A stretch of DNA of 64,000 nucleotides from Candidatus Eiseniibacteriota bacterium (GTDB lineage: Bacteria > Orphanbacterota > Orphanbacteria > Orphanbacterales > Orphanbacteraceae), in assembly GCA_043809585.1 (NCBI GenBank), contig JBDROZ010000039.1:12577-76576 (forward strand). Reading direction: 5' to 3'. Below the pieces are notes generated by a model. It was not told where the DNA came from. It worked only from the letters and a program-made list of their open reading frames with translations, and made no database searches. Every line of letters begins with the position of its first letter. Position 1 is the first letter of the stretch. Shown here one piece after another: positions 15,447-56,500 of this stretch. The position numbers and the translations under genes are program-made.

Positions 15447-16738
15447 GACACCACCTCCGAGAGGCGCCCCCGCGCCTCCTCCGCCTCCGCCCTTTCGATC
15501 TCCACGAGGCCGATCCGATTCTCGAGATCCTCGTCCGCCCGGACCGAGACCTTCAGGTAGTTCGGGGCGTGGCCGGTCCACCGCCCCCCGCGGTCCCGGG
15601 CCTCGAAGAGAACCTCCACGGTCCGCCCCACGTGCCTCTCGTGGAAGATCCGCTTCTTCTCCGCGCCGAGGCGCCGCGCGGCCTCGCTCCTCTCCTTCGC
15701 GAGGTCGGGCCGCACCTTGTCCGGGATGCGGGCCGATCGCGTGCGAGGGTGCTCGGAGTAGACGAAGACATGAAAATGATAGAAGGGGAGCGACTCGAGG
15801 AGGTCGTAGGTCCGCCGGAAGGAGGCGTCGTCTTCACCGGGAAAACCGACGAGCACGTCCGTGCCGATTCCGATATTCGGCACCTTCTCCGTGAACCGCT
15901 CGAAGAGCAGGGCGTAGCCGGCGGCGGTGTACGGCCGCCCCATCGCTTCCAGAATCCGGTCGTCTCCGCTCTGCAGGCAGAGATGGACGTAAGGGCAGAG
16001 CGTCTCCGACTCCGCCATCCGATCGACGAGGCGGTCCCCCACGGTCATCGGCTCGATGGAGCTGATCCGCACGCGGTCGATTCCCGGCACCCCCTCGATC
16101 CGCTCCACGAGCCCCGTGAAGTCGACGCCCCCCTCTTCGTAGGTGCCGATGTTGACGCCGGAGAGGACGATCTCCCGGTGGCCCCTCCCGGCAAGCTCCC
16201 GCGCCTCCCGGAGAGAGTCGCCGAGCGCCCGGCTCCGGGCTCGGCCCCGGGTGAAGGGGATGACGCAGAAGGTGCAGAAGACGTCGCAGCCGTCCTGGAT
16301 CTTGAGGTTCGCCCGGGTCTCGCGGAAGCGCCCCGTCTCGGCGATGGTGAAGACCTCCCGGCCGATGGGGCCCCGGAGAACGGTCCCCTCCCCCCCCGCC
16401 GGAAGATCTTCCACCAAATCGGGGACCCGGTGCTTGTTCGCCGTGCCGACCACGAGGTCCACCCCGTCGATCTCCCGGATTCGCTCCGCCTCCAACTCGG
16501 CGTAGCAGCCGGTGACGACGACCCGCGCCTCGGGAGAACGCCTCTTCAAGAAGCGGATCAGGCGGCGGCATTTGGCCTCGCTGCCGCGGGTGACGGAGCA
16601 GGTGTTGACGACGTAGAGGTCCGCCCCCTCGTCCTCCGGGACGAGATCATAACCCCTCCGGCGGAGGCCGTCGGCGAGTTGGGCGCTCTCCGCCTGGTTC
16701 AGGCGGCATCCGAGAGTGTGGACAGAGGCACGCCGCAA
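15443..16738 (-). CDS. mtaB: tRNA threonylcarbamoyladenosine methylthiotransferase MtaB-like (radical SAM MTTase)
   Basis: 431 aa. MRRASVHTLGCRLNQAES…, CDVFCTFCVIPFTRG. A second MTTase paralog in tandem with miaB. Confidence 0.8.
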   Translation of the reverse strand: MRRASVHTLGCRLNQAESAQLADGLRRRGYDLVPEDEGADLYVVNTCSVTRGSEAKCRRLIRFLKRRSPEARVVVTGCYAELEAERIREIDGVDLVVGTANKHRVPDLVEDLPAGGEGTVLRGPIGREVFTIAETGRFRETRANLKIQDGCDVFCTFCVIPFTRGRARSRALGDSLREARELAGRGHREIVLSGVNIGTYEEGGVDFTGLVERIEGVPGIDRVRISSIEPMTVGDRLVDRMAESETLCPYVHLCLQSGDDRILEAMGRPYTAAGYALLFERFTEKVPNIGIGTDVLVGFPGEDDASFRRTYDLLESLPFYHFHVFVYSEHPRTRSARIPDKVRPDLAKERSEAARRLGAEKKRIFHERHVGRTVEVLFEARDRGGRWTGHAPNYLKVSVRADEDLENRIGLVEIERAEAEEARGRLSEVVS

Positions 16739-38746: not shown

Positions 38747-39191
38747 GTTTCTCGCCTCGGTAGGGGTTTCCTCGTCCCCATGAGCCTATCGGCCCGGGCC
38801 GAAGTTTTCAAGATCTCCCTCTGTGGGTGCCCAAAGAACCCTGCAATTCACCAAGTAATCACGAGTTGCCGGGTTGCCCTCCTCGGGCCTGATTCACTGG
38901 TCTTCATTGTGGTGCGAAGGGGGGGGCTCGGAAACGCCTTCTCGATTCCGGCAGGTTCGTGTCTCGACGTGGGGCGCGAACTCGGTTCGCCTTCCGGCGG
39001 CCGGAGCGCACCGCCGGCCCCTGGGGTGAGAAGCGGTCCATGTGAGCTCCCGGGGATTCACATGCCGGGAAGGTCAACAAGGAGTCGGAACGGCAAAGTT
39101 CGCGTTTCTATGCGGAAGGCGAACTGGGATGTTTGTGGTGGACGGACCGGTTTCGGGAAGGATGTCGCTTTCGCCTGGTTTCGTGACGTAG

Positions 39192-39209
39192 ATGTCCCAA
39201 TAGGGACAT
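39192..39209. promoter_or_regulatory. Perfect palindrome ATGTCCCAATAGGGACAT (candidate operator/REP-like site)
   Basis: 7-4-7 inverted repeat, followed by TCGAG. It shares the 12-mer GGGACATTCGAG with the site at 40161-40176. Confidence 0.35.
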
Positions 39210-39261
39210 TCGAGGCGGACGGGGACGCCCTCCGGCCCCCAAAGACCGGGCTATTGTCTGA

Positions 39262-39291
39262 GATGTCACTTCCTTCCAGAAGTGGGACATC
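39262..39291. promoter_or_regulatory. Imperfect palindrome GATGTCACTTCC…GAAGTGGGACATC sharing the GTGGGACAT core
   Basis: Second copy of the motif, about 190 nt upstream of the lipoprotein ORF. Confidence 0.3.
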
Positions 39292-39454
39292 AGGGCCACG
39301 GAGAGGGGCACTGGTGGGCGCCATTACGTTGCGGGCCTTCGCGCAATTTCCGATAAGGACCGTTATCGGTATCAACGGTGGATCGGCTCTGTTAATCTGT
39401 TGGTGGATTATCCTTCCCCGTCCTCCCTTGGGCGGGTCATGCCGGAGGTGAGAA

Positions 39455-40000
39455 ATGAGATGTCAATTGATCGGTTCTGTGGCGGCTTCCCTCGCTGCTA
39501 TGTACTGCTTTGGTCTGGGTTGTGCACAAACCCAAGTTACACCAGCGGCGGTCAAAACTAATTACATCTATCCTCCGCCGGCCCCGAGGGAGGGGGAATG
39601 GCCCATATGGCGGGATGTACCTGTCGAGACAGAGGATTACGATCGTATTTGGAGAACAGTCATCGACGTGGTATCTGAGCGTTTCCCAATAGCTGTTTTG
39701 GATCGAGAGGGTGGCTATATAAGGACCGAATGGAGACCTGACCGCGACCTTATTGGAGATTATGCAAAAGAATACCTCATGCTGTCGGACCAGCGGAAGC
39801 TAGATAAGTACCCATGTGAAAGGTGCGAAACGCGCTTCGTTATCAGGTGCTACCCTGCCGAGAAACGCCTCAGAATGGGGTTGGAAGTCAAGAAAGGCAA
39901 CACGGACAAGCTCTCTCCCGAGCTCTCTCCGGAGAAGATCGCTATCGCCTGGCAAGGAATCCCCCAGGAAATACAGAACCGGCTGCGCGTAACGGAGTAA
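39455..40000 (+). CDS. Hypothetical secreted/lipoprotein-like protein (181 aa) in a lower-GC patch
   Basis: GGAGGTG RBS 4-5 nt before the ATG. Signal peptide MRCQLIGSVAASLAAMYCFGLGCAQTQ. No recognisable domain. Local composition is clearly less GC-rich than the flanks. Confidence 0.65.
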   Translation: MRCQLIGSVAASLAAMYCFGLGCAQTQVTPAAVKTNYIYPPPAPREGEWPIWRDVPVETEDYDRIWRTVIDVVSERFPIAVLDREGGYIRTEWRPDRDLIGDYAKEYLMLSDQRKLDKYPCERCETRFVIRCYPAEKRLRMGLEVKKGNTDKLSPELSPEKIAIAWQGIPQEIQNRLRVTE

Positions 40001-40146
40001 TCTAAGAAAGGATTGAGAATCGGCCGACCATTCGCGCCGCTCCTCGATATGCTTCTGCCTTTACAAACTCGCAGCCCTTAACCTTCTGATAACGCGATTT
40101 ATTCGTAACTTCCCGGGGGGCGTGCCATTTCTGCGGATCCTGATAC

Positions 40147-40170
40147 GTCACACTTTTCGTAAAGTGGGAC
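40147..40170. promoter_or_regulatory. Near-perfect palindrome GTCACACTTT-TCGT-AAAGTGGGAC (third GTGGGACAT-family site)
   Basis: 10-4-10 inverted repeat with one mismatch, about 150 nt downstream of the lipoprotein ORF, inside a 377-nt convergent intergenic gap. Confidence 0.35.
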
Positions 40171-40377
40171 ATTCGAGCAGCAGAAACCCGTGCGGGCGAC
40201 ATTCGCCGAACAGACACTCCTCGATAAAGGGCCACTCCCGGCAGGACCTCCCTCCTCTCCCCTTGATTGTGCATCATAAAGGACGTTATGAGGCACAATG
40301 ATGGTTTCAGCCTCCGGTCCATGCCGGCATCACTCCGGCGGTCGGCTGCATCTCGGAGCGATTCTTCCTCCAAGGCT

Positions 40378-41256
40378 TCAGGCCCCCTCGCGATCCTCGG
40401 CCCAGAGGCGGAGGAAGAGGTCGATCGAGCCGGGCGCGAAACCGGCGTAATGGTTGTTGAAGAAGGCGAAGACGTCCCCCCCGGTCTGGAGTAGGTTCCG
40501 AATCACGGCGATCCATGCCCGGGTCGGACCGGTCCGGTCGACCAGGATCGACTCCCAATCCCCCTTCCGCTCCCCCGCCTCCTTCGCCTCCCGGACGAGT
40601 TTGTCCATCTGCCGGTGATGGCCGAGAAAGCGGAGATAGGCGAAGTCGGCGGTCCGGGGATCGCCCGCCTCGAAGTACCCCTCCGGGGGGGGCATGGTGT
40701 AGTAGTCGGCGAGGACGAGGGCCGCGCCCGCCTCCCGGAGAAGGCTGTAGAGCTCCTCGCCGAGCCAGGTCCGGTTCCGCACCTCCACGGCGCACCGGCC
40801 CGCCTCGGCGAGATGGGGGGCGAACCGCTCGAGCCGCCTTCGGAAGTCGTCCCCCGTCCGGTACTCGTGCTCGTCCCTCCCCTTCGCCACGTACGGGAAC
40901 TGGAAGAGCAGGGGGCCCCGCTTCTCGCCGAGCCGGTCCATGGCGGAGAGGAACGCCGCCCACTCCCCCTCGCAGTTTTCGAGGTAGAGATCGTGGGTGA
41001 TCCTCTTCGGGACCTTGGCGGCGATCTTGAAGCCGTCCGGGGTCTTCCGCGCCCATCCGTCGACGAGTTTCGCCGAGGGGCTCGCGTACCAGGTGGCGTC
41101 GATCTCCACCGCCGGAAGGAGGGCGGAGTAATGGCGGAGAAAGTCGGCCGCCTTCGCTCCCTCGGGATAGAACGGGCCGACCCAGTCGGCGTTGCCGAAG
41201 GAGGAGGTTCCGAGATGGAGGCCGGGGGGTAGACCGGCGAGATCGAATCGAAGCAT
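40378..41256 (-). CDS. DUF72 family protein (YecE-like)
   Basis: 292 aa. …GTSSFGNADWVGPFYP… and …FAFFNNHYAGFAPGS… are DUF72 hallmarks. Confidence 0.85.
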   Translation of the reverse strand: MLRFDLAGLPPGLHLGTSSFGNADWVGPFYPEGAKAADFLRHYSALLPAVEIDATWYASPSAKLVDGWARKTPDGFKIAAKVPKRITHDLYLENCEGEWAAFLSAMDRLGEKRGPLLFQFPYVAKGRDEHEYRTGDDFRRRLERFAPHLAEAGRCAVEVRNRTWLGEELYSLLREAGAALVLADYYTMPPPEGYFEAGDPRTADFAYLRFLGHHRQMDKLVREAKEAGERKGDWESILVDRTGPTRAWIAVIRNLLQTGGDVFAFFNNHYAGFAPGSIDLFLRLWAEDREGA

Positions 41257-42112: not shown

Positions 42113-42156
42113 GGTGTGCGGGAAATAGGGTCTCTGGTTAGGAAATCCTACGTGCG

Positions 42157-42500
42157 GCGGGGGGCGGACCGGCATCGGGAGGGACCGGGGCATAGACGGG
42201 GAGCCGTTAATGGTATCCGCAACGCAATGTCCGCGAGCCCGGAGAATGGGAGGGTTTCCTTCCGCAGCACGACGAGCGTCCCAGCCTGCCCCGATCCCTC
42301 CCTCTTCCGGTCCGCCTCCCCGCCGATTTCATGGGATCGCCATCCCCCGGAGCCTGCCCGCGCAGTATCGAATTGTCATCCCCGCGTAGGCGGGGACCCA
42401 GGAAATCCAATTCCGTAGCTCCCCCCCCCCCGTTCGCCCTGAGTGCCGCGGCCGAAGGCCACGGTGTATCGAAGGGTCGGACCGGCGAGAGACATGTGAG
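42157..42500 (-). repeat. Composite structured repeat, inverted copy (order on the plus strand: B', C', A')
   Basis: 42157-42324 is the reverse complement of the about 170-bp B element (TIR GGGGCGGACCGG…CCGGTCCGCC). 42325-42425 is the reverse complement of C (…GGAATTGGATTTCCTGGGTCC CCGCCTACGCGGGG ATGACAATTC…). 42426-42500 is the reverse complement of A (…CCGTGGCCTTCGGCCGCGG CACTCAGGGCGAACGGGGG). Confidence 0.8.
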
Positions 42501-42578
42501 TGTTCATGGCGGTAGTTGGTATTTTGTCTCTGAACTCCCCTAAATTCCCTTGGTCACTTACGGCAGGGAAGCGGCCCA

Positions 42579-44195
42579 TTAGGAGGGCACGGTATCATCG
42601 GGAAACACGATCTTGGCCTGTACTCCTATTTGCCCCAATAGGTAAAGAAGCCCCCCACCATCGATAAGCTCGATAGGCTTTTCGTTGGCAAACTCATGAG
42701 CATCTGGCCCATACCCACTAGTCGAAACCAGTATGCCCTTATTGGCTCCTTCATTAATCATCGTTCCATAGAGGTCTCGAACGGCCGCAACGCCCACCGT
42801 ATTCTTGTACCGCTTGGCCTGAATAACGACCTTCCCACCTACAATGGGCCGCGTATCGAAGGCAATAGCATCGACACCCCCGTCTCGGGATGACTGTGTT
42901 TGTTTGGTGTCGAATCCGAGATGGTCGAACAGATTGCTTATGAGGTTCTCGAATTCAAACGGATCTAATTCATAGAGATTGGGTCGACTCTCGAGGTCGG
43001 CGAGGACATCGCTTGCTTCCACGAAGCGTCGATCAACCATGTTGAAGTCGACTATGGGCTTAACGGCCTGCAGTTGGTCCGCACTCCGAGAAACTTGAGC
43101 ACCCAGATTCCTCAGACAAACCGCCTTGTCGACCCTCGAGAGGTTAACCTCAGAGAAGCGCTCCTTAGTTGTTCTGACAGAAACGAGATGCGGACGGATA
43201 TCGTTCCCCGTGGCCGGATCTACCGCCTGAACAAATCCATTGAAGACTACGACGTCGATATGGTTTCCTTGGTCTGCCTCCAGAACCTCATGGATAGACC
43301 GAAGGCTGACTGCGGCCACGACATCTTGATAGAGAGATCTTAAGTCGCTCTGCTTCGCATCCTTCTCTCGTATCTCATCCTTGCTCTTTACGTAGAAGTA
43401 CTCACTGACGGTCGGCACAACCGAAACATTGGGGAGCTCATACTCAATTACAAGCTCCTTCGATTCTGGGATGTACGCCAATCGGTATTCTTGGGGAAAC
43501 TCCTCGGGGTATTCTGATCGCTCCAGGACCATAGAGGAGTAGGTTACTATCGCCTCAGAATCACCATTGCCGTACGCAACTTGAAACTCGTCTATCTCCT
43601 GATTCCGCTGTCGGACCTTCTCCTGGAATTGCTCTTTCTCCTTCACATATTCGGCTCGCACTTGCCGTATTCTCTCTTCTCGAGCATCGAGCGCTTGCTG
43701 ATACTCTTTAAGTGCCTCTGAGTATTGAGCATCGGCTTCTCGAAGTCGAGACTCGTACTTCGCTCTGGAACCTGGGAGAATCTTTGCTAGACGGTTAGGC
43801 TTTGGTATCTGGCTAAGAAAGGACTCTCGGTCCGGCGGTGTCGGTTCCTCGCTTAGATCCTTCGGAATCTTGAATGACCGAAAGCGCTCTTTCACTCGAA
43901 GGTCACCAAATGAGACTGTATCATCAATCTGAAGTGTGTGTTTCAGAATCTGGGACAACGCCTCGGTTCTAGTGGCAAGGTGCTCGTTCCTCTCGTTGGC
44001 TTCCTCCAAACGACTCTCGGCGTAGAGTTTCTTGGCTTCGCGTACAGCCTGCCCCTGAGCGCGGATCATTGCCTTCTCAAGGAGGTGCAATTCTCTCTGG
44101 CGAGCTTTCTCTCTACGTTCGGCTTCACGAGCGGACCGCGCGGCTTCGCGGGCCATGGCGTTTACTAGGCCGCTGAAAGAACCTCTTCTACCCAT
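42579..44195 (-). CDS. Mrr-type restriction-endonuclease-domain protein with a long N-terminal coiled-coil region (538 aa)
   Basis: The C-terminal about 150 aa (…ELDPFEFENLISNLFDHLGFDTKQTQSSRDGGVDAIAFDTRPIVGGKVVIQAKRYKNTVGVAAVRDLYGTM…) match the Mrr_cat nuclease fold. The N-terminal about 200 aa are charged and heptad-rich. AAGGGGA RBS. Composition is clearly less GC-rich than the chromosome average. Confidence 0.8.
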   Translation of the reverse strand: MGRRGSFSGLVNAMAREAARSAREAERREKARQRELHLLEKAMIRAQGQAVREAKKLYAESRLEEANERNEHLATRTEALSQILKHTLQIDDTVSFGDLRVKERFRSFKIPKDLSEEPTPPDRESFLSQIPKPNRLAKILPGSRAKYESRLREADAQYSEALKEYQQALDAREERIRQVRAEYVKEKEQFQEKVRQRNQEIDEFQVAYGNGDSEAIVTYSSMVLERSEYPEEFPQEYRLAYIPESKELVIEYELPNVSVVPTVSEYFYVKSKDEIREKDAKQSDLRSLYQDVVAAVSLRSIHEVLEADQGNHIDVVVFNGFVQAVDPATGNDIRPHLVSVRTTKERFSEVNLSRVDKAVCLRNLGAQVSRSADQLQAVKPIVDFNMVDRRFVEASDVLADLESRPNLYELDPFEFENLISNLFDHLGFDTKQTQSSRDGGVDAIAFDTRPIVGGKVVIQAKRYKNTVGVAAVRDLYGTMINEGANKGILVSTSGYGPDAHEFANEKPIELIDGGGLLYLLGQIGVQAKIVFPDDTVPS

Positions 44196-44441
44196 AGAAT
44201 CCCCTTGACGAAATCCGATTTGGTACTTTTCTATCTACAGACTGGGTAACAATTGGGGAACACAATGCCAGTCTACTCTCACAACCAATGATCGTGTGTG
44301 CACAGTTACTGCTACAGAACGGATATTGCGCTCCCCGATCATCGGCGCGAGAAGTGCTCGTTCGCCTCCGGCTATCTGCTAACTACTTGGGATTCTAGGT
44401 GTTCGATGGGTCGTGGGTCAATCATTCTCTGTTTCCCGACC

Positions 44442-44738
44442 CCGGTTCATTCCCTTCGACAGGCCCCCGGTTCATCCCCTTCGATACGGACCTCCGGTCC
44501 TACTCAGGACAGGCTTCGATACACCGCGGCCCTTGGCCGCGGCACTCAGGACGAACGGGGGAAGATCGGCGGGGAGGCGGACCGGAGGAGGGAGGGGAGT
44601 GGGGCGGACTTGAACGCTCGTCGTGCGGCGGGAGAAAGCCCTCCCATTCTCCGGGCTCGTACGGGTAGCGTTGCGCGGACCGCCAACAACTCCCCGGTTA
44701 TGCCCCGGCCCCTCCCGATGCCGGTCCGCCCCCCGCCG
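44442..44738 (+). repeat. Composite structured repeat, direct copy 1 (A + B)
   Basis: A (44442-44560): CTTCGATAC GGACCTCCGGTCC TACTCAGGAC AGG CTTCGATAC ACCGCGGCCCTTGGCCGCGG CACTCAGGAC GAACGGGGG. B (44571-44738) starts GGGGAGGCGGACCGGAGG and ends CCGGTCCGCCCCCCGCCG. Confidence 0.8.
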
Positions 44739-44780
44739 CACGCAGCAGATTGCGACTGTCCTCGGCCACCTTCTCCCCTG

Positions 44781-45029
44781 TTCATCCCCTTCGATACGGA
44801 CCTTCGGTCCTACTCAGGACAGGCTTCGATACGATCCTCCCTCCGGTCGGATCACTCAGGACGAACGGTGACGGGGGCCACGGGAAATGTACATGATACC
44901 TTCGGTTTCGCCGCCCCCTTCGACAGGATCAGGACGGGCTTCGATTCACCGCGCATTGCCGCCCCCGTCGACAGGCTCAGGACAGGCTTCGATACGGCGC
45001 CGGGGGCGCCTACTCAGGACGAACGGGGA
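44781..45029 (+). repeat. Two further A-type units (hairpin plus YACTCAGGAC…CTTCGATAC modules) between copy 1 and mazF
   Basis: 44781-44877 and 44914-45029 repeat the CTTCGATAC / GC-hairpin / ACTCAGGACGAACGG pattern with different hairpin sequences (for example GGCGCCGGGGGCGCC). Confidence 0.7.
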
Positions 45030-45038
45030 ATGGCATCC

Positions 45039-45380
45039 CTACGCCGCGAACATCTCCCGGAGAACGGCCAGCGACAAAGCCGTCGCCTTCGGCGACAGAC
45101 GACCGAGGCGGCGGACGAGGCGATCCCGGTCCACCGTGCGGATCTGATCGAGCACCACATGGCCGGAGCACCCCCCGAACCGGCAGGGCACTCGAAAGGG
45201 ATAACCGTGAGATCCGGTCGTGAGCGGTGCCACGATGACCGTGCGGAGATGCCCGTTCAACTCGTCCGGTGAAACGACGACGCAGGGCCGGGTCTTCCGG
45301 ATCTCCTCGCCCCGGGCGGGATCGAGGGCGATCAGGTAAACCTCACCCCGCCGAATCCCGCTCTCCTTCACCATTCCCAC
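45039..45380 (-). CDS. mazF: Type II toxin, MazF/PemK family endoribonuclease
   Basis: 113 aa. …RGEVYLIALDPARGEEIRKTRPCVVVSPDELN…VIVAPLTT… is the PemK signature. Confidence 0.85.
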   Translation of the reverse strand: MGMVKESGIRRGEVYLIALDPARGEEIRKTRPCVVVSPDELNGHLRTVIVAPLTTGSHGYPFRVPCRFGGCSGHVVLDQIRTVDRDRLVRRLGRLSPKATALSLAVLREMFAA

Positions 45381-45616
45381 TCCTCCTCGTCGAACCGGGT
45401 CGGAGCCGGAGGAATCACCAGGAGGTCCTCCCCTCTCTCCCGCAGGGCCTCAGCCCCCTCCGCCCAGCCGGCGCGGATTCCTGCGGCCGAAGCGATGACG
45501 ATCGCTCCGCCCTGAACACGGATCTCGACTTCCTCCGAGAGTCCGGCCTCCTCGATCAGCGGCTTCGGAATCCGCACGCCCCGTGAATTCCCGATGCGAA
45601 CCAAGCGTGTCTTCAT
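45368..45616 (-). CDS. mazE: Type II antitoxin, MazE/AbrB (SpoVT-AbrB) family
   Basis: 82 aa. MKTRLVRIGNSRGVRIPKPLIEEAGL… is a swapped-hairpin signature. Acidic tail. Overlaps mazF by 13 nt. GGAGGGG RBS. Confidence 0.8.
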   Translation of the reverse strand: MKTRLVRIGNSRGVRIPKPLIEEAGLSEEVEIRVQGGAIVIASAAGIRAGWAEGAEALRERGEDLLVIPPAPTRFDEEEWEW

Positions 45617-45836: not shown

Positions 45837-46406
45837 GTGCCTAGCATGCGGTTGATTCTCAAGATCGCGCTCTTGGCCGTGGCGACCCTCGCAATTCAAT
45901 GTACTTCCGGAAGCGGCCCTACAGATTGGGTCCCTGATTTTGACCAGGCGAAGTGGGATGATCTGGAGGAAGCTGCCAAGACGGTACGGTTGGGCGACAC
46001 CTTCAAACTGCGAGTGGGCCGGACGGCCTACATTTCGGGAGCGTACCTGTGGGTCGTCTTCGCGGATGTCCCATCAGACGGTCGTTGCCCGATCGATGGA
46101 TCGTTCACGTGCTTTTGGGAGGGTGTCGCCTTCGTCGACCTATGGGTGCGCCAGGACATCCCGAACAGAGCCCCGGGAGAACCCGTAGAGCTCGTGGTCC
46201 ACACCACGGACACCGGCCCGTACTCGAAACACGTGGACCACGAGGCATACACGCTGACCCTGGGCGGGCTCGTGCCGTACCCGACGTACAAGGAGGACGG
46301 CATCAATCCTCAGTATCCTGGCCTGTTCCAGGTTCCACAGCTCGGCGAGTACATCGTGACGCTGACGGTAACAAGGGCCGCCCCCGGGTCCCCCGCCGCG
46401 GACTAA
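45837..46406 (+). CDS. Hypothetical secreted/lipoprotein-like protein (189 aa)
   Basis: GGGAGG RBS. Signal peptide MPSMRLILKIALLAVATLAIQCTSG. No recognised domain. Lower GC than the flanks. Confidence 0.6.
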   Translation: MPSMRLILKIALLAVATLAIQCTSGSGPTDWVPDFDQAKWDDLEEAAKTVRLGDTFKLRVGRTAYISGAYLWVVFADVPSDGRCPIDGSFTCFWEGVAFVDLWVRQDIPNRAPGEPVELVVHTTDTGPYSKHVDHEAYTLTLGGLVPYPTYKEDGINPQYPGLFQVPQLGEYIVTLTVTRAAPGSPAAD

Positions 46407-46506
46407 TCCAGCGTGAAAGCGGCGGCAGGTCGTTGCTCCGCCCGAAATCGCAGTTTCGTCCCCCTGATCCGACTGCCATCCCCACGCCTCTGCTCCCCCC
46501 GCCTCG

Positions 46507-46906
46507 CCCCCTTCGATACGGACCTCCGGTCCTACTCAGCACAGGCTTCGACAAGGCGCCGAGGGCGCCTACTCAGGACGAACGGGGAGGGGAACTACGG
46601 AATTAGATTTCCTGGATCCTCGCCTACGCGAGGATGACAATTGGACAGTGCGCGGGGCAAGCACCGCGGGGATGACAAGGGAAGCAAGGCCGTGTCGTCC
46701 CCGGGGGACCTTTGCCGCCAGGGCTAAGGGGACACGGCGGGGAGGCGGACCGGAGGAGGGAGGGGAGTGGGGCGGACTTGAACGCTCGTCGTGCGGCGGG
46801 AGAAAGCCCTCCCATTCTCCGGACTCGCGGAGGTGGCGTTGCGGAAGGCATCAAGAACTCCCCGGTTATGCCCCACCCCCTCCCGATGCCGGTCCGCCCC
46901 CCGCCG
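46507..46906 (+). repeat. Composite structured repeat, direct copy 2 (A + C + B)
   Basis: A 46507-46590. C 46591-46737 (GGAATTAGATTTCCTGGATCC TCGCCTACGCGAGG ATGACAATTGG … GCGGGG ATGACAAGGG …CCAGGGCTAAGGGGACACGGC). B 46738-46906, near-identical to 44571-44738. Confidence 0.8.
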
Positions 46907-46936
46907 TACGCAGAAGATGGTGACTGTCCCTGGTTG

Positions 46937-47258
46937 CCCTTCGATACGGACCTCCGGTCCTACTCAGGACGAACGGGGAGGGAGCATCACGGAATTGGAT
47001 TTCCTGGATCCCCTGCGCGGGGATGACAAGGGAAACAGGGCCGTGTTGTCCTCGGGGGACCTTTCGCGCCAGGGCTAAGGGGACACGGCGGGGAGGCGGA
47101 CCGGAGGAGGGAGGGGAGTGGGGCGGACTTGAACGCTCGTCGTGCTGCGGAAGGAAGCCCTCCCATTCTCCGGGCTCGCAGAGGTAGCGTTGCGGAAGGC
47201 ATCAAGAACTCCCCGGTTATGCCCCGCCCCCTCCCGATGCCGGTCCGCCTCCCCGCCG
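46937..47258 (+). repeat. Composite structured repeat, direct copy 3 (short A + C + B), in tandem with copy 2
   Basis: A 46937-46978 (internal module deleted between the two CTCAGGAC repeats). C 46979-47089. B 47090-47258. Confidence 0.8.
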
Positions 47259-47402
47259 TGCAGAACAAACAAGTGGCTGTCCCTGGATGCTCACTCGACC
47301 GTCATTTCATCACTGTGAACGAAAGGCGCGGCTCATTCGAAACGGACCCGGTAATCCGCTGCGCGACTGCCGAGCACTGCAGCGGACAGCCGCAGTCAGG
47401 CC

Positions 47403-47454
47403 CTGCCCGTCCTACCTGCCCGTCCTACCTGCCCGTCCTACCTGCCCGTCCTAC
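47403..47454. repeat. Perfect tandem repeat CTGCCCGTCCTAC x4 (13-bp unit)
   Basis: Read directly. Four exact units ending 10 nt from the stop codon of the xdh-family large-subunit gene. Confidence 0.9.
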
Positions 47455-47463
47455 CCCATCCCC

Positions 47464-49845
47464 CTACATCTTCCCCACCGCGCGAAGCACCCGCTCCGGT
47501 GTGAACGGGAGTTCCCGGAGGCGGACGCCGAGCGCGTGCTTCAATGCGTTGCCGACGGCCGGGGCGGGACCGTTCACCGGGATCTCGGCGATCGCCTTCA
47601 CCCCGAAGGGGCCGGTCGGCTCGTACGTTTCGACGAAGATCGTCTTCATCTTCGGCATGCCCTTCGACTTCAGGATCTTGTAGTCGATGAAGCCGACGTT
47701 CGCCGGGCGCCCCTCGCCGTCGAACATCAGTTCCTCCACCAGCGCCGCGCCGAGCCCCATCGAGACCGCGCCGTGCACCTGCCCCTCCGCGAGCTTCGGC
47801 GAGAGGATCGTCCCCGCGTCGACCGCCGTCACGAACTCCACCACCCGGATCTCCCCCGTCTCCATGTCCACCTCGATATCCGCGAACTGCGCCGCGAAAG
47901 GGGGCGGGCTGACCGGCGACACGTGCGACGCCGTCTTCTCCACCTGCGTCTTCTTCTTGTAGGCGATGAACATCGCCACCTCCCGGAGGGGCGTCTCCCC
48001 CCCCGAGGCCGCCGACATCACCTTGCGATCCTCCAGACGTAGATCGGCCGCCTTCTCGCCGATCATCTCCGCCGCGGCGTCCAGGATCGAATCGCGGACT
48101 TCCTCCGCCGCCCGGAGCGCGGCGCCGCCCGAGACATACGTCGTGCTCGACGCGTACGCCCCCGAGTCGAAGGGGGTCAGGTCCGTGTCCGCCGCGTAGA
48201 CCGTCACATCCTCCACGCCGATCCCGAGGGTCTCCGCGACGATCTGGGCGATCACCGTGTCCCCCCCCGTACCGAGGTCCGCCGCGCCGATCATCAGCGT
48301 CACCGAACCATCTTCGTTCAACTTCACCGTCGCCCCCGCCGTGTCGATACCCGCCACACCGCTCCCCTGGGAGAGACAGCACATGCCGACCCCCTTCTTG
48401 ATGAGCGGATTCCGGGCGTTCTCCTCGGCATAACGCTTCCGCTTCTCCCGCCAGCCGATCGCCTCCGCCCCCTTCTCGATGCACTCCCGGAGGCCGCAGC
48501 TCTCGATCTTCCACGCCGACCGCTCGTCCTCCGGCACGTTCGACGCCTTCACTTCATAGATGTGGGGGGAGAGCTCGTCTGCGTCCCCCTCGCGCACCGT
48601 GGTGGCCAGCCGAAAATCGACAGGGTCCATGCCGAGCCTCTCCGCCACCTCGTCCATGTGGCACTCGAGGGCGAACGCCCCCTGAGGCGTTCCGTATCCC
48701 CGCATGGCGCCCGCCGGCGGCAGGTTCGTGTAAACGGCGTCGAACTTGTAGCGCATGTTCGGGCAGCGGTAGCGGGGGAGATTCTTGTTCCCCGTGTTCG
48801 TCGGCACCGTGGGACTGTGGGAGCCGTACGCCCCCGCGTCGACGAGAGCGACCATCTCCATGGCCGTCAGCGTGCCGTCCTTCTTTACGCCCACCTTCAC
48901 GTCGATGGACATGGAGTGCCGGCACCGGACCGCGTTCAGGTCCTCGAACCGGGAAAGTTCCAAACGAACGGGCCGCCCCGAGGCGAGGGTGAGGGCCGCG
49001 GCGACATCCTCGAGGACCATCTCCTGCTTGCCCCCGAAACCGCCGCCGATCCGCGGCTTGATCACCCGGATCCGCCCGACCGGAAGGCCGAGGGCCTGCC
49101 CGATCTGGCGGCGCGTGTGGAACGGAACTTGGGTCGTGCAGATGACGGTCAGCCGCCCGTCGTCGTCCAGATAACAGACCGCCCCGTGCAGCTCCATCTG
49201 GGCGTGCTGCACCCGGGGGGAGAAGTAGGTCCCCTCGACCACCAGGTCCGCCTCGGCGAAGCCTCTCGCCGGATCCCGGAGCGTGCAGTCGACGGCGGCG
49301 CAGCGGTTCCGCGCCGGGTCCTCGGCCCGCACGATGTCCGGCTCGTCGTGAACCACCGGCGCCCCTTCCCGGAGCCCCTCCTCGGGCGTGAGCACCGCGG
49401 GAAGAACCTCGTAGTCGACCCGGATTCGGCGGAGCGCCTCGGCGGCGACCTCCTCCGACTCGGCCGCCACCGCCGCGACCCGGTCCCCCACGTGCCGGAC
49501 CTTGGCATCGAAGAGGAAATAGTCGTACGGGGAAGGCTCGACGTAATCCTGGCCCGCCCGCGTATAGGCGACCCGGGGGAACCGGCCGGGATCGTTCTCG
49601 CTCCACGGCCGGTCGCCGCGCACGTTCTCGTGGGTGAGCAGGGCGTGAACGCCGGGGAGGGCCGCCGCCGCGGAGACGTCGATCGAGCGAATCCGCGCGT
49701 GGGCGTGGGGGCTGCCGAGGATCTTCGCGACGAGCATCCCCTTTTGCGGGAAATCGTCCGTGAAAGCGGGGGCGCCGGTCACCAGTTCCCGGCCGTCCAC
49801 CTTCCGGACGTCCCGTCCGATCACGTGGTAGTACTTCCGGCTCAC
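47464..49845 (-). CDS. Xanthine dehydrogenase/aldehyde oxidase-family molybdopterin-binding large subunit
   Basis: 793 aa. Aldehyde oxidase/XDH a/b hammerhead and MoCo-binding domains (…GGGFGGKQE…, …QVHGAVSMGLGAAL…). Confidence 0.9.
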   Translation of the reverse strand: MSRKYYHVIGRDVRKVDGRELVTGAPAFTDDFPQKGMLVAKILGSPHAHARIRSIDVSAAAALPGVHALLTHENVRGDRPWSENDPGRFPRVAYTRAGQDYVEPSPYDYFLFDAKVRHVGDRVAAVAAESEEVAAEALRRIRVDYEVLPAVLTPEEGLREGAPVVHDEPDIVRAEDPARNRCAAVDCTLRDPARGFAEADLVVEGTYFSPRVQHAQMELHGAVCYLDDDGRLTVICTTQVPFHTRRQIGQALGLPVGRIRVIKPRIGGGFGGKQEMVLEDVAAALTLASGRPVRLELSRFEDLNAVRCRHSMSIDVKVGVKKDGTLTAMEMVALVDAGAYGSHSPTVPTNTGNKNLPRYRCPNMRYKFDAVYTNLPPAGAMRGYGTPQGAFALECHMDEVAERLGMDPVDFRLATTVREGDADELSPHIYEVKASNVPEDERSAWKIESCGLRECIEKGAEAIGWREKRKRYAEENARNPLIKKGVGMCCLSQGSGVAGIDTAGATVKLNEDGSVTLMIGAADLGTGGDTVIAQIVAETLGIGVEDVTVYAADTDLTPFDSGAYASSTTYVSGGAALRAAEEVRDSILDAAAEMIGEKAADLRLEDRKVMSAASGGETPLREVAMFIAYKKKTQVEKTASHVSPVSPPPFAAQFADIEVDMETGEIRVVEFVTAVDAGTILSPKLAEGQVHGAVSMGLGAALVEELMFDGEGRPANVGFIDYKILKSKGMPKMKTIFVETYEPTGPFGVKAIAEIPVNGPAPAVGNALKHALGVRLRELPFTPERVLRAVGKM

Positions 49846-53540: not shown

Positions 53541-56500
53541 TTGCGGATCATCGCCGTCATTCTCGCCCTCGCCGCCGCGGGGGCCGTCGTGCTGGCGGAG
53601 CGCCCCTCCCTCCTTCCTTACGCGACGAATCAGATCACGCCCGCCAACCTCTACACCCTCCAGCAGAAGGTCCAGTGGACGGGGCCTCGGAAGATCCAGG
53701 TGCTCCGGACCGACCACTTCGACGTGTACATGGGGAGCACGGAAGAGCGGCTCGCGGCGAGGATCGCCGATATCGCCGAAGATTGGTATCCCCGCCTCGA
53801 GGCGCGGATGAATGTCCGATACGACTCCCTCGACGGGAGGAGCGAGCGGATCCCCCTCATCGGCTACACCTCCGCCACCCGGTTCCAGACGACGAACACG
53901 TCGCCCGGCATCGTGGGGGAGGGAGTGCAGGGATTCTTCGACTTGATCCGGGGACGGATCGTCATCCCCTTCACCGGATCGAACGAAATGCTGGGCCACG
54001 TGATCCGCCACGAGATGGTCCACTCCTTCACGCTCCCCCTTCTCGAGACATCGTGGAAACGGTACAAGGCGGACCGGGAGATCGTCACCTCCCGCCGGCA
54101 GACCTGGCAGGACCTCGTCTACCTCGCCCACCGCTTCACCGCCGCGGCGCCGGACGGCGTCTTTCCCCGTTTCGTGAAGGGGACGCTCTCTCCCGAGGAG
54201 GACGAGGTCGGCCTCCCCCCGCCGTCATTCGGCCCGGGACGTCTCCACCCGCGGATCTTCTTCGGATTCGAGGAGGGGGGCGGGAGGCGGCGGAGAGCGC
54301 GGATCACCGTCCGGCTCTCCTCCCCCCTCGAGGCGGCCTCCCTCGCCTCACTCGCGCCGGGCGAGATCGAAAGGCTCGCCCGGGCCCTCGCCGCCGCGGG
54401 AGGCGGACGCTCGTCGGCCCGGGTGATGACGAGAGAAGCGCCCTGGTCCGTACTCTCGGAGACGAACACGCTCTTCGACGAGGCCGTCCCGGCCGGCCGG
54501 GAGGCGAACCATCTGCACAGGCTCTTCGCGGAGGCGGCCCGTTTCGAGGCGGATGATCCGGGCTCCCATGAAGGGCCCTCCCGCCGGTCCCGGCTCGACC
54601 TCCTCGTCCTTCCGGGTGTGGATCCCGACCGCCTCCCCGAAGCGTACCGGCGGATCGCCCCGCTCTACGACGCGCTGTCGGCCGTCCCCTACGGCGGCCC
54701 GGTCGCCGAGGAGGACCGGCGCCCGTCGGCCGAACGGTTCGGGGCGGCGGAACGGGCCCTCTTCCGCTATGTGCCTCCCGACCTCAAGACCCGGAGCTTC
54801 CCCCTCGGCGTGCTCGAAGGGGTGGCCGAGTTCTATGCCGCCGACTGGAGCGATCTGAACGATCTCGTGCTCCGGGACCTGGTCCACGAGGGGCGGCTCA
54901 TCCCCTTCCAAGACCTCGGTCCCTGGCACGGTTACCTCGTCTACGTCGAAGGTCTCTCGTTCTTCCGGTTCCTCGCGGAACGGTTCGGCGAAGAGAAGGT
55001 GGGCGTCCTGCTCGAGAGCCTCTACCGGGGATACGGCCTCGGCGACGTCTTCGAGGCGGCCTTCGGCGTGGAACTGGAAGAGTTGAACCGGATGTGGGAG
55101 TTCGACCTCCGGCGGCGGATCCTCTCCCAGTTCCCGGACCAGCAGGACATCCGCGAGTACGCCACGGAAGTCGACGAAGAGGGGGTCTTCGACGGCCCCC
55201 CCCGGGCGGACGGCGGGCGTCTTCTCTTCAGCGCCTTCCGGAACGGCCGCGCCGAGCTGAGGGTTTATCGGGACGGAGAATGGTCGGGCCTCGCGCGGGA
55301 CCGGCTTCCGGGATTCGAGTCGCTTCACCTCGGCGATCCGGCCATCGACGTCCTCGGGGACCGGGCCGCCTTCGTGACCCTCTCGAAAGGCCGGGACGAG
55401 GTGGTGATCGTCTCCCTCCCCGAAGGGAGGATCGTCGAGCGCCGCCGTTTCGATTCGATCCTGACCATCGAGTCCCTCGCCCTCTCGCCCGACGGCGGCG
55501 AGGTGGTGATCGCGGCGCTGGGAGAAGAGGGGGGGAGCGACCTTTACCGGTTCCGTGTCGGAGAAGAGGGGATCGAGCGGATCACGAAGGACATTTACCA
55601 CGAGACCGACCTCGATTGGGGAGAAGGGGGAATCCTTTTCGCGGCGGACCGGGAAGTACTCGGCCGTTACGATCTCCATCGCATCCCGCCCGGGGGAGCG
55701 CCGGAACTTCTCCTCCGTCTCGACCGCTCGGCGACCGCCCCCCGCTGGCTCGGCGGCCGGGTCCTCTTCCTCACCCGGGCGGAGAACCGGCCGAAGAACG
55801 TGCATCTCTTCGACCCGGCCGCCTGGACGATCCGGCCCGTCACGAGGGACGCCGTGGGGATCTCCGGCTTCGACGTGGACGGCGACACGTTGTTCGTCCG
55901 GGCGAACCGGAGCCTCCGGTTCTCGATCTGGAAGACCTCCCTGACCGGCCTCCTCGAACCTCCGGCGCCGGAAACGGCCGCCGCTCCCCCCGGGGAAGTC
56001 ACCGAGTGGACATTGCCCGAGCCGGTGGCGTACGAGAAAAAGCCGTACTCGCGACGGTACGGGCCGGATCTCTTCTTCATCAGCGGGAGCGCGTTCTACA
56101 ACCAGTCCCTCCTCGGTCTCTCCGACATCCTCGGCGACCGGAAGATCGCGATCTTCATCGGCTCGAACGCGGACCGGACGTCGGACATCCTCAAGTTCCT
56201 CTCCGGCGGCGTGACCGTCCACGAACTCGGGGGGCGGGTGGACTGGCGGTACGGCGCGTTCCGCTACGCCGACGAGTACCTCACCGACGAGAGGGGCTTC
56301 TTCTTCCGGAAGGAGACGGGCGTGATCGGCGGCGTCACTTACCCCTTCGACCGCTTCCGCTCGGTGGGGCTCAATCTTCTGCTGAAACACGTGGGGGAGG
56401 AGGGGATCGGGGGATCGTCGGAGAGGAAATCGGGCGAGGTGACGGTCCAAGGCGTGATCGGCTACGACACGGCCGTGCCGGGACGGTTCGGCTACGGGTT

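What the first reader, a model, noticed from the sequence alone, without database searches (positions are those of the whole stretch)
42579..44195. Mrr-catalytic-domain protein with an about 200-aa coiled-coil N-terminus as the cargo of the inverted-repeat cassette
The C-terminal domain carries the Mrr/restriction-endonuclease fold signature (…DGGVDAIAFD…VIQAKRY…). The N-terminal third is highly charged heptad-repeat sequence (REAERREKARQRELHLLEKAMIRAQGQAVREAKKLY…). No methyltransferase or specificity subunit is adjacent. Context (mazEF, lower GC, flanking repeats) suggests a stand-alone defence or abortive-infection nuclease. This architecture is not a well-described system.
Basis: partly seen in the sequence, partly recalled or inferred. 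Interest (0 to 1): 0.55.

Follow-up and report, generated by a model that had tools for sequence, protein, structure and literature searches.

The report
Solitary Mrr-type nuclease, uncharacterised N-terminal module
This is an intact, horizontally acquired, single-gene DNA-cutting enzyme from a very large family that databases already label "restriction endonuclease"; its first 400 residues form an uncharacterised module that other bacteria attach to different defence-type domains.

Summary
ORF 42579-44195 (-) encodes a 538-aa protein with a strong Mrr_cat domain (aa 408-519, E=1.6e-32) and intact catalytic residues (E416, D438/D442, Q459-A-K461). Its N-terminus is highly charged and predicted as two long helices. 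The gene is a 52% GC island in a 67% GC genome, bounded by inverted repeats, next to mazEF, with no methyltransferase nearby.

The claim that the architecture is "not well described" is half right. The protein is identical to a deposited Candidatus Eisenbacteria MAG protein and has more than 7,500 homologs, with full-length relatives across several phyla. A dedicated full-length PADLOC model matches it (mREase_IV, E=2e-93). I found no experimental study or structure of the family.

New here: the N-terminal module (helices plus alpha/beta domain) is portable. Usually it carries Mrr, but it also carries TerD, TerB-C or the DNA-binding and nuclease part of SNIPE/PD-lambda-1. In two proteobacterial plasmids the gene follows a Mokosh-like helicase.

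Most likely it is a stand-alone defence nuclease targeted or gated by that module. Methylation dependence is unproven. Verdict: new member of a catalogued, uncharacterised kind; moderate interest.

The parts
42579..44195 (-). Complete gene for the 538-aa protein: helical hairpin, alpha/beta domain, linker, Mrr_cat nuclease
   Evidence: ORF listing. 100% identical to NCBI 'MAG: restriction endonuclease [Candidatus Eisenbacteria bacterium]'. Full-length PADLOC mREase_IV match, E=2e-93.
43953..44180 (-). Helix 1 (aa 6-81), basic and highly charged
   Evidence: AF2 model, H6-81. 38% charged. Family median pI 10.1. The N-terminal region (aa 1-209) has 24% median identity among divergent relatives.
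43770..43952 (-). Non-helical insert between the two long helices (aa 82-142), with conserved F96, L99, P141 and G142
   Evidence: AF2 secondary structure, pLDDT about 86-91 except about 72 at aa 131-140. Invariant and near-invariant columns.
43569..43769 (-). Helix 2 (aa 143-209), 43% charged
   Evidence: AF2 model, H143-209. Composition.
43080..43568 (-). Conserved alpha/beta middle domain (aa 210-372) of unknown fold family; acidic
   Evidence: Modelled alone: pLDDT 88, pTM 0.81. No convincing PDB or BFVD match (best TM 0.26-0.45). No PDB sequence-profile hit. No Pfam hit. PHROG 38135 (unknown function) matches aa 186-365. Median pI 5.3.
42981..43079 (-). Flexible linker (aa 373-405)
   Evidence: pLDDT 37-43 for aa 381-400. 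A frameshift in the homolog at L007 falls in this region.
42621..42980 (-). Mrr_cat PD-(D/E)XK nuclease domain (aa 406-525)
   Evidence: PF04471 E=1.6e-32. Foldseek hits to MspJI, AspBHI, EndoMS/NucS and AF1548. The most conserved region, 67% median identity.
42948..42950 (-). Codon for E416, the conserved acidic residue of the first helix of the nuclease core
   Evidence: Invariant in alignment A1. Coordinates.
42870..42884 (-). DGGVD (aa 438-442), the metal-binding aspartate motif
   Evidence: D438, G439, G440 and D442 are invariant. Coordinates.
42813..42821 (-). QAK (aa 459-461), the Mrr-type (D/E/Q)xK motif
   Evidence: Q459, A460 and K461 are invariant in A1. The motif definition 'Mrr-cat (D/E)..(D/E/Q)xK' is quoted from PMC3874153.
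44392..44421 (-). Sigma-70-like promoter candidate (TTGACC-18-TAGAAT, 10/12) about 200 nt upstream, inside the low-GC segment
   Evidence: Consensus scan. Two sites were found against 1.2 expected, so this is weak evidence on its own.
44200..44206 (-). Shine-Dalgarno-like AAGGGGA, ending 4 nt before the ATG
   Evidence: Read directly from the sequence.
42148..42474 (.). Left GC-rich repeat copy, inverted relative to the others; abuts the 3' side of the low-GC segment
   Evidence: Inverted repeat pairs I1-I9. The GC boundary lies at 42475.
44465..44745 (.). Right repeat copy; abuts the 5' side of the low-GC segment. A partial copy lies at 44775-44868.
   Evidence: Repeat families D1-D4 and pairs I2, I5 and I7. 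28-mer core copies at 44480 and 44790.
46497..47260 (.). Two further tandem copies of the same repeat (46497-46913 and 46937-47260), closing the roughly 5-kb variable patch
45039..45616 (-). Neighbouring mazEF toxin-antitoxin pair (context only; not shown to be functionally linked)
   Evidence: PemK/MazF E=5e-28 and MazE E=1.1e-8.

Best explanation
The gene encodes a solitary, horizontally acquired DNA endonuclease that most likely acts in defence against invading DNA.

Shown: the C-terminal 120 residues are a catalytically intact Mrr-type PD-(D/E)XK nuclease. It is tethered by a roughly 30-residue flexible linker to a 370-residue N-terminal module made of two long charged helices plus a conserved alpha/beta domain of unknown fold.

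Shown: this module is a portable unit. Across bacteria the same module carries Mrr (the large majority), Mrr+TerD, TerD alone, a TerB-C/SngA-like region, or the DUF4041 + GIY-YIG part of SNIPE/PD-lambda-1.

Inferred: the module decides when or where the otherwise non-specific nuclease cuts, and the helices probably mediate oligomerisation. I lean towards the module being an adapter or sensor, meaning it recognises an infection cue or a location. I think it less likely to be a reader of methylated bases. The database label 'Type IV methyl-directed restriction enzyme' remains possible.

In this genome the gene works without a partner: there is no methyltransferase and no helicase.
For: Nuclease identity and integrity:
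- Mrr_cat E=1.6e-32.
- E416, D438, D442 and Q459-A460-K461 are invariant in 59 full-length homologs.
- Foldseek matches to MspJI, AspBHI, NucS and AF1548.

Solitary gene: 12 distinct genomic contexts share no common partner. tblastn finds no helicase homolog in the window. The neighbours here are mazEF, a flavin reductase, DUF72 and a molybdopterin oxidoreductase.

Horizontal acquisition and defence-type setting:
- The gene is 51.8% GC against 65-69% in the flanks. The gene is also AT-richer than its flanks in 3 of 4 homolog loci.
- Toxin-antitoxin neighbours occur in the window, L001, L007 and L014. Transposase, recombinase or integrase genes occur in L006, L014 and L016. Defence-island neighbours occur in L018 and L019 (AIPR, PIN).
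- The family is on plasmids and on 6 predicted viral contigs.
- Full-length PADLOC model, E=2e-93.

Portable module:
- aa 1-400 alone retrieve 2,873 representative clusters.
- Of 68 representatives with a classifiable C-terminus, 57 end in Mrr, 5 contain TerD and 6 have other tails.
- P0123 is the module plus PD-Lambda-1 profile positions 146-474 of 491 (E=1e-77). P0235 is the module plus a SngA/TerB-C-like region.
- A module-only gene lies directly after a SNIPE gene in L009.
- A large Streptomyces clade is module+Mrr+TerD.

Adapter-like behaviour:
- Conservation falls from Mrr (67%) to the middle domain (44%) to the N-terminal region (aa 1-209; 24%). The SNIPE paper reports the same pattern, and there the variable N-terminal region is proposed to set localisation and specificity (PMC13190303).
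- The middle domain resembles no known modified-base reader and is acidic.
Against: - No experiment on any family member was found, so defence activity is inferred from context and domain associations only.
- The adapter/sensor reading rests on a few chimeric representatives (1 SNIPE-type, 1 TerB-C, 5 with TerD among 150) and one gene adjacency.
- The protein has no transmembrane segment and no DUF4041, so it cannot work exactly like SNIPE.
- Several contexts are plain housekeeping neighbourhoods (L002, L004, L017).
- Solitary Mrr_cat enzymes with unrelated N-terminal domains are classically modification-dependent, and absence of a methyltransferase fits that equally well.
- An acidic overall charge does not exclude a local DNA-binding surface.
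- Many apparent 'module-only' proteins are fragments or frameshifted genes.
Confidence: 0.5

Rival explanations
1. It is a classical Type IV (modification-dependent) restriction enzyme. The N-terminal module binds methylated or otherwise modified foreign DNA, and the Mrr domain then cuts it. The host needs no methyltransferase because its own DNA lacks the mark.
For: - PADLOC files the full-length family under 'Type IV methyl-directed restriction enzyme'.
- Mrr_cat is the catalytic domain of EcoKMrr and the MspJI family. ScoA3Mrr (SCO4213, an Mrr_cat protein in a laterally acquired islet) restricts m6A DNA in vivo (PMC3874153, PMC1934918).
- No methyltransferase is adjacent here or in 11 of 12 contexts.
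- The top Foldseek hits are the modification-dependent enzymes MspJI and AspBHI.
Against: - The MspJI/AspBHI match comes from the nuclease domain (TM 0.18-0.28, rmsd about 20 A).
- The middle domain alone matches no SRA, PUA, winged-helix or other reader fold. There is no Mrr_N hit.
- The match to the canonical Mrr-sized PADLOC model is confined to aa 372-520.
- The same module is fused to non-nuclease TerD and TerB-C domains, and to a SNIPE part that already has its own DNA-binding domain.
- The Loenen and Raleigh review notes that an Mrr-type nuclease domain does not dictate modification dependence (LlaGI).
- I could not establish whether SCO4213 has this architecture.
Confidence: 0.3
2. It is one half of a two-component helicase-nuclease system (Mokosh-like) whose helicase partner has been lost or lies elsewhere in this genome, so the copy here is an orphan or a decaying remnant.
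For: In Xanthomonas hortorum p224 and Agrobacterium leguminum pTi, the homolog lies 66-76 nt downstream of, and co-directional with, homologous SF1 helicases of about 1,150 aa (36% identity to each other). Those helicases match MkoC/MkoA (E about 2e-57).
Against: - The pairing was seen in only 2 of 12 contexts.
- The window has no helicase homolog.
- The gene here is full length, with a conserved start and invariant catalytic residues.
- Most homologs are solitary.
Confidence: 0.07
3. It is not a defence gene. It is a stress-response, DNA-repair or purely selfish element nuclease, as the TerD/TerB associations and the housekeeping neighbourhoods might suggest.
For: TerD and TerB-C fusions. Several loci lie between metabolic genes. 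One Streptomyces member is named 'Bacterial stress protein'.
Against: - Patchy distribution across phyla, atypical GC, plasmid and prophage carriage, and toxin-antitoxin or defence neighbours.
- TerB-domain proteins occur in the validated defence systems Shango, Bunzi and Dionysus (bioRxiv 10.1101/2025.09.30.679545).
- Repair nucleases are normally vertically inherited and syntenic, which this family is not.
Confidence: 0.1

Closest known systems
PADLOC family PDLC03663 'mREase_IV' (putative Type IV methyl-directed restriction enzymes), annotated by NCBI as 'restriction endonuclease'
   Same: The whole architecture matches end to end (aa 4-522 against profile positions 15-525 of 544, E=2e-93). 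Homologs are about 534 aa and 55-60% identical across several phyla.
   Different: Nothing structural differs; this gene is an ordinary member. The family label is an annotation. I found no experimental test of methyl dependence for this architecture.
EcoKMrr / ScoA3Mrr (Mrr-family Type IV enzymes)
   Same: Mrr_cat catalytic domain with the D...QxK motif. A single polypeptide with no cognate methyltransferase. ScoA3Mrr also sits in a laterally acquired islet.
   Different: EcoKMrr is about 300 aa with an N-terminal winged-helix Mrr_N domain. Here the N-terminal 400 aa are unrelated: no Mrr_N hit, and similarity to the Mrr-sized PADLOC model is limited to aa 372-520.
SNIPE / PD-lambda-1 (Saxton et al., Nature 2026, PMC13190303)
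   Same: A single-protein nuclease with a variable N-terminal region, a middle domain, a linker and a C-terminal nuclease. Conservation falls towards the N-terminus in both. Natural chimeras put this family's N-terminal module in SNIPE's adapter position (P0123), and a module-only gene sits next to a SNIPE gene (L009).
   Different: No transmembrane anchor, no DUF4041/PF13250, and the nuclease is PD-(D/E)XK rather than GIY-YIG. Membrane localisation or action at the genome-injection step is untested.
MspJI / AspBHI family (Type IIM/IV)
   Same: These are the best structural matches of the full model (E about 1e-6). They share the Mrr-like D-QxK nuclease domain.
   Different: Their N-terminal SRA-like 5mC-flipping domain has no counterpart here. 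The middle domain modelled alone does not retrieve them.
Mokosh (MkoA/MkoB, MkoC)
   Same: In two plasmids the homolog is paired with an MkoC/MkoA-like helicase, giving a helicase + nuclease layout.
   Different: The Mokosh nuclease is PLD-type (my own knowledge). Here the nuclease is Mrr-type, and this window has no helicase.

Membership tests
Mrr_cat (PF04471) PD-(D/E)XK nuclease domain | Profile match above the curated threshold | tested here: met
   112.5 bits against a cut-off of 21, aa 408-519, covering profile positions 2-114 of 115.
Mrr_cat (PF04471) PD-(D/E)XK nuclease domain | Catalytic signature (D/E)...(D/E/Q)xK plus the upstream acidic residue | tested here: met
   E416, D438/D442 and Q459-A460-K461 are present and invariant in 59 homologs. 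Motif definition from PMC3874153.
Mrr_cat (PF04471) PD-(D/E)XK nuclease domain | Restriction-endonuclease-like alpha/beta fold | tested here: met
   AF2 secondary-structure order for aa 412-522. Foldseek matches to MspJI, AspBHI, EndoMS/NucS and AF1548. pLDDT is only about 45-83 in this domain.
PADLOC mREase_IV, model PDLC03663 | Full-length match to the family HMM | tested here: met
   E=2e-93, aa 4-522 against profile positions 15-525 of 544.
Type IV (modification-dependent) restriction enzyme | Cleavage requires modified DNA | not testable with these tools
   This needs in vitro cleavage or in vivo transformation/plaquing assays with modified and unmodified DNA.
Type IV (modification-dependent) restriction enzyme | No cognate protective methyltransferase | tested here: met
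   None among the neighbours scanned. One of 12 homolog contexts has a DNA methyltransferase nearby, on the opposite strand.
Type IV (modification-dependent) restriction enzyme | A recognisable modified-base-binding domain (Mrr_N winged helix, SRA/PUA, DUF3427 and similar) | tested here: not met
   No Pfam hit in aa 1-400. The middle domain has no significant PDB or BFVD structural match and no PDB profile hit.
EcoKMrr family proper | N-terminal Mrr_N domain plus a protein of about 300 aa | tested here: not met
   The protein is 538 aa. The Mrr-sized PADLOC model PDLC03657 aligns only with aa 372-520.
SNIPE / PD-lambda-1 | N-terminal transmembrane anchor or membrane-targeting region | tested here: not met
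   The highest 19-aa hydropathy is 1.21 (0.25 within aa 1-210). The family maximum is 1.40, below the 1.6 threshold used. Peripheral membrane binding was not tested.
SNIPE / PD-lambda-1 | DUF4041 (PF13250) domain and GIY-YIG/T5orf172 nuclease | tested here: not met
   No such Pfam or PADLOC hits for the window protein. They are present only in the chimeric relative P0123 and in the neighbour gene in L009.
Lamassu (LmuA/LmuB) | SMC-like LmuB plus a DUF4297 effector gene | tested here: not met
   The LmuB hit is at E=0.93 only, consistent with coiled-coil composition. There is no partner gene.
Mokosh-like helicase + nuclease pair | Adjacent MkoA/MkoC-type SF1 helicase | tested here: not met
   tblastn of both plasmid helicases against the window gives no hits. 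The helicase is present only in L013 and L015.
CoCoNuT / McrBC-type coiled-coil nuclease systems | McrB GTPase and McrC partner genes | tested here: not met
   The neighbouring ORFs are mazEF, a flavin reductase, DUF72, an oxidoreductase and unassigned small proteins.

The most novel reading that the evidence does not exclude
The 370-aa N-terminal module (charged helical hairpin plus an alpha/beta domain with no known fold relatives) may be a previously unnamed, widely distributed 'adapter/sensor' cassette of bacterial immunity. It would direct or unleash interchangeable effectors (Mrr nuclease, GIY-YIG/SNIPE nuclease, TerD, TerB-C) in response to an infection-associated cue or location. On this reading the thousands of proteins annotated as 'Type IV restriction endonuclease' would in fact be modification-independent, SNIPE-like or sensor-gated nucleases.
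Probability: 0.22. Interest if true: 0.7.

Novelty: new member of a known kind. Interest (0 to 1): 0.4.

Why it matters
The gene itself is an ordinary member of a very abundant family. More than 7,500 homologs were found, in Acidobacteriota, Chloroflexota (Anaerolineae), Binatia, Pseudomonadota, Actinomycetota, Cyanobacteriota-related lineages and at least one archaeon.

The family matters for three reasons:
- It is labelled 'Type IV restriction enzyme' with no experimental basis that I could find.
- Three quarters of the protein has no Pfam model and no structural relative.
- The unexplained part behaves as a portable module shared with SNIPE-type, TerD and TerB-C proteins.

Members exist in culturable Agrobacterium, Xanthomonas, Methylobacterium and Streptomyces. 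Testing one of them would show whether a large block of 'restriction endonuclease' annotations is right. It could also connect the long-unexplained Ter-domain proteins to nuclease-based immunity.

Tried and rejected
- **Middle domain as an SRA/PUA-like reader of modified bases.** Rejected. The MspJI/AspBHI hits of the full model vanish when the domain is modelled alone. BFVD gives only one weak uncharacterised hit, and the PDB profile search is empty.
- **Middle domain as a degenerate duplicate of the nuclease.** Rejected. hhalign probability is 0.5%.
- **'Module-only' proteins as an independent architecture.** Mostly rejected. P0285 is a frameshifted full-length gene, and most short representatives end inside the domain. 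One genuine case (P0131) sits beside a SNIPE gene.
- **The inverted repeats as a family-wide mobile cassette.** Rejected. Seven other genomes have no comparable repeats tightly flanking the gene. There is no tRNA, no Rfam family, and no transposase in the segment. The 28-mer repeat core also occurs as single copies in MAGs from three unrelated phyla.
- **Canonical heptad coiled coil.** Only marginal periodicity.
- **Lamassu, CoCoNuT and Mokosh membership for this locus.** Rejected; the partner genes are absent.
- **Is SCO4213 (ScoA3Mrr) a member of this architecture?** Unresolved.
- **The Anantharaman/Iyer/Aravind 2012 Ter paper.** It may describe these fusions, but it is not held in the library.
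- **DefensePredictor and Vassallo papers.** Neither describes this architecture.
Full report

Yes. The minus-strand ORF 42579-44195 encodes 538 aa. Pfam finds Mrr_cat (PF04471) at aa 408-519 with E=1.6e-32, 112.5 bits against a cut-off of 21. Weaker overlapping hits go to the related NA-iREase1 and Mrr_cat_2 models. The quoted motifs are present: DGGVD at aa 438-442 and QAK at aa 459-461. The first 210 residues are 38% D/E/K/R.

AlphaFold2, run with 59 homologs, gives mean pLDDT 80.9. It predicts two very long helices (aa 6-81 and 143-209) separated by a 60-residue non-helical insert.

Three refinements are needed.
- The heptad signal in this one sequence is only marginal against shuffles (p about 0.06-0.12).
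Modelled alone it reaches pLDDT 88 and pTM 0.81.
- A disordered linker at aa 373-405 separates that domain from the nuclease.

**2. Context**

The gene and its immediate flanks (42475-44464) are 51.8% GC, in a window that averages 66.9%. This segment is bounded by inverted copies of a GC-rich repeat at 42148-42474 and 44465-44745, with sub-segments 81-97% complementary.

The same repeat recurs at 44775-44868, 46497-46913 and 46937-47260. The region 42.1-47.3 kb is therefore a patch of repeats separating three inserts:
- the nuclease gene;
- a mazEF pair at 45039-45616 (Pfam);
- a 189-aa ORF with no family assignment.

The patch lies between a flavin reductase gene and a molybdopterin oxidoreductase gene. 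The segment contains no tRNA, no Rfam family, no transposase and no methyltransferase.

Comparable repeats do not tightly flank homologs in seven other genomes. The 28-nt repeat core also occurs as single copies in MAGs from three unrelated phyla. The 'inverted-repeat cassette' is therefore real but local. It is not a property of the gene family, and its mobility is unproven.

A sigma-70-like promoter candidate (44421-44392) and an AAGGGGA Shine-Dalgarno-like sequence precede the start codon.

**3. What family is it?**

The protein is 100% identical to an NCBI entry, 'MAG: restriction endonuclease [Candidatus Eisenbacteria bacterium]'. More than 7,500 database proteins match. The best 120 are nearly all full length (about 534 aa) and 55-60% identical, from Acidobacteriota, Binatia, Anaerolineae and others. 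Plasmid-borne homologs occur in Agrobacterium, Xanthomonas, Methylobacterium and Streptomyces.

PADLOC has a dedicated model, PDLC03663 'mREase_IV', that aligns with aa 4-522 (E=2e-93). The Mrr-sized model PDLC03657 aligns only with aa 372-520. The architecture is therefore already catalogued as a putative Type IV restriction enzyme.

On the other hand:
- no Pfam model covers aa 1-400;
- no PDB sequence matches the protein or profiles of the family;
- my literature searches found no experimental work on it.

**4. Is the nuclease likely to be active?**

Yes. E416, D438, G439, G440, D442, Q459, A460 and K461 are invariant in 59 homologs. This fits the Mrr-cat signature '(D/E)..(D/E/Q)xK' quoted by Loenen and Raleigh (PMC3874153). 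Foldseek with the full model retrieves MspJI, AspBHI, EndoMS/NucS and AF1548.

**5. What are the other 400 residues?**

The MspJI/AspBHI alignments of the full model are long but poor (TM 0.18-0.28, rmsd about 20 A). When the middle domain is searched alone they disappear. The best PDB hit is then CamS, at E=2e-3 and TM 0.26-0.29. The best viral hit is an uncharacterised protein at TM 0.45. The domain is not detectably related to the nuclease domain (hhalign probability 0.5%) and is acidic, with median pI 5.3. Helix 1 is basic, with pI 10.1. It does not look like any known reader of modified bases.

**6. The N-terminal module is portable**

Searching aa 1-400 alone against 1.84 billion representatives gives 2,873 clusters at E<=1e-3. 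Among the best 150, 68 have a classifiable C-terminus:

| C-terminus | Count |
|---|---|
| Ends in Mrr | 57 |
| Contains TerD | 5 |
| Other tails | 6 |

The other tails include two identifiable cases.
- P0123 matches PD-Lambda-1 profile positions 146-474 of 491 (E=1e-77) and carries T5orf172/MUG113.
- P0235 matches TerB-C and Shango SngA.

A large Streptomyces clade is module + Mrr_cat + TerD.

'Module-only' proteins are mostly artefacts. P0285 is a frameshifted full-length gene. P0131 is genuine and lies immediately after a SNIPE/PD-Lambda-1 gene.

SNIPE (PD-lambda-1) is a membrane-anchored GIY-YIG nuclease that cuts phage DNA during injection. Its poorly conserved N-terminal region is proposed to be an adapter that sets localisation and specificity (PMC13190303). 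In P0123, this family's module occupies that adapter position.

The conservation gradient here matches what is reported for SNIPE: Mrr 67%, middle domain 44%, N-terminal region (aa 1-209) 24% median identity. Unlike SNIPE, the window protein has no transmembrane segment and no DUF4041.

**7. Partners**

Across 12 distinct contexts there is no universal partner. In Xanthomonas hortorum p224 and Agrobacterium leguminum pTi, the homolog directly follows homologous MkoC/MkoA-like helicases of about 1,150 aa (36% identity to each other; E about 2e-57 to MkoC). This pairing is absent from the window and from the other loci.

Toxin-antitoxin genes flank the gene in four contexts. Mobile-element genes flank it in three. 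Clear defence neighbours (AIPR, PIN, large helicases) occur in two. Six IMG/VR viral contigs carry full-length copies.

**8. Mechanism**

Shown:
- an intact Mrr-type nuclease is tethered by a flexible linker to a conserved N-terminal module;
- the gene is solitary and horizontally acquired;
- the module is shared with SNIPE-type, TerD and TerB-C proteins.

Inferred:
- the protein is a stand-alone defence endonuclease;
- the module decides when or where it cuts;
- the long helices probably mediate oligomerisation.

I lean towards an adapter or sensor role for the module and away from methyl-base reading, for three reasons. The module is also fused to non-nuclease domains. It is fused to a SNIPE part that already binds DNA. 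It resembles no known reader. This rests on few chimeras and no experiment.

The Type IV reading remains a strong rival (0.3). It is supported by the database label, the lack of a methyltransferase, and the precedent of ScoA3Mrr. I could not test whether ScoA3Mrr has this architecture.

**9. Verdict**

The finding is real and correctly located. The gene is an ordinary, intact member of a very large family that is already catalogued but experimentally uncharacterised. The rating is therefore 'new member of a known kind'. Interest is moderate (0.4). It comes from the family's unexplained, portable 370-residue module and its links to SNIPE and Ter domains, not from this locus.

Noticed in passing
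L013 3371-8470 (Xanthomonas hortorum p224) and L015 3216-8485 (Agrobacterium leguminum pTi): Homologs of the gene are paired with a conserved upstream MkoC/MkoA-like SF1 helicase of about 1,150 aa (36% identity between the two genera). In Xanthomonas an NYN-domain gene follows. This may be an undescribed Mokosh-like helicase + Mrr two-gene system.
   Followed up: partly
L019 5893-7974 (Streptomyces sp. NBC_01724 plasmid) and proteins P0361-P0480: A large Streptomyces clade carries the same module and Mrr_cat plus a C-terminal TerD domain (about 690-740 aa). In L019 it sits between AIPR-family and PIN-domain genes and IS elements.
   Followed up: partly
L009 1450-4118: A SNIPE/PD-Lambda-1 gene (E=5e-149) is followed 26 nt later by a gene encoding only the N-terminal module (405 aa), with no Mrr domain downstream. 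The contig ends soon after.
   Followed up: partly
L007 4001-5631 and L008 1782-3412: A homolog is split by a frameshift in the linker into a 408-aa module ORF and an overlapping 137-aa Mrr_cat ORF. The same arrangement appears in two samples, so it may be a pseudogene or a sequencing error.
   Followed up: yes
window 47402-47466: Four to five tandem copies of a 13-nt unit (CCTGCCCGTCCTA), just beyond the last repeat copy and overlapping the 3' end of the molybdopterin oxidoreductase ORF.
   Followed up: no
window 39000-40500: A second low-GC patch (52-59% GC) holds a 181-aa ORF (39455-40000) with no Pfam match. It may be another small horizontally acquired insert.
   Followed up: no
window 45837-46406: A 189-aa ORF with a hydrophobic, signal-peptide-like N-terminus and no Pfam family lies between mazEF and the distal repeat copies. 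It is a third 'cargo' of the repeat patch.
   Followed up: no
L010 1154-1181, L011 2540-2567, L012 2231-2258: The exact 28-nt repeat core (TTCGATACGGACCTYCGGTCCTACTCAG) occurs in MAGs assigned to Alphaproteobacteria, Latescibacteria and Actinomycetota. The motif is therefore not confined to this genome.
   Followed up: no
window 14935-14999, 16227-16291 and 55755-55819: A 65-nt direct repeat family (85% and 62% identity to the reference copy), unrelated to the finding. It may reflect paralogous genes.
   Followed up: no
L020 3303-10140 (IMG/VR contig, 86 kb): On a predicted viral contig the full-length homolog is flanked by PD-(D/E)XK nuclease, DUF6884, UvrD-helicase and a second PD-(D/E)XK gene. 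This is a nucleic-acid-processing or defence-like cluster, with no phage structural genes in the stretch examined.
   Followed up: partly
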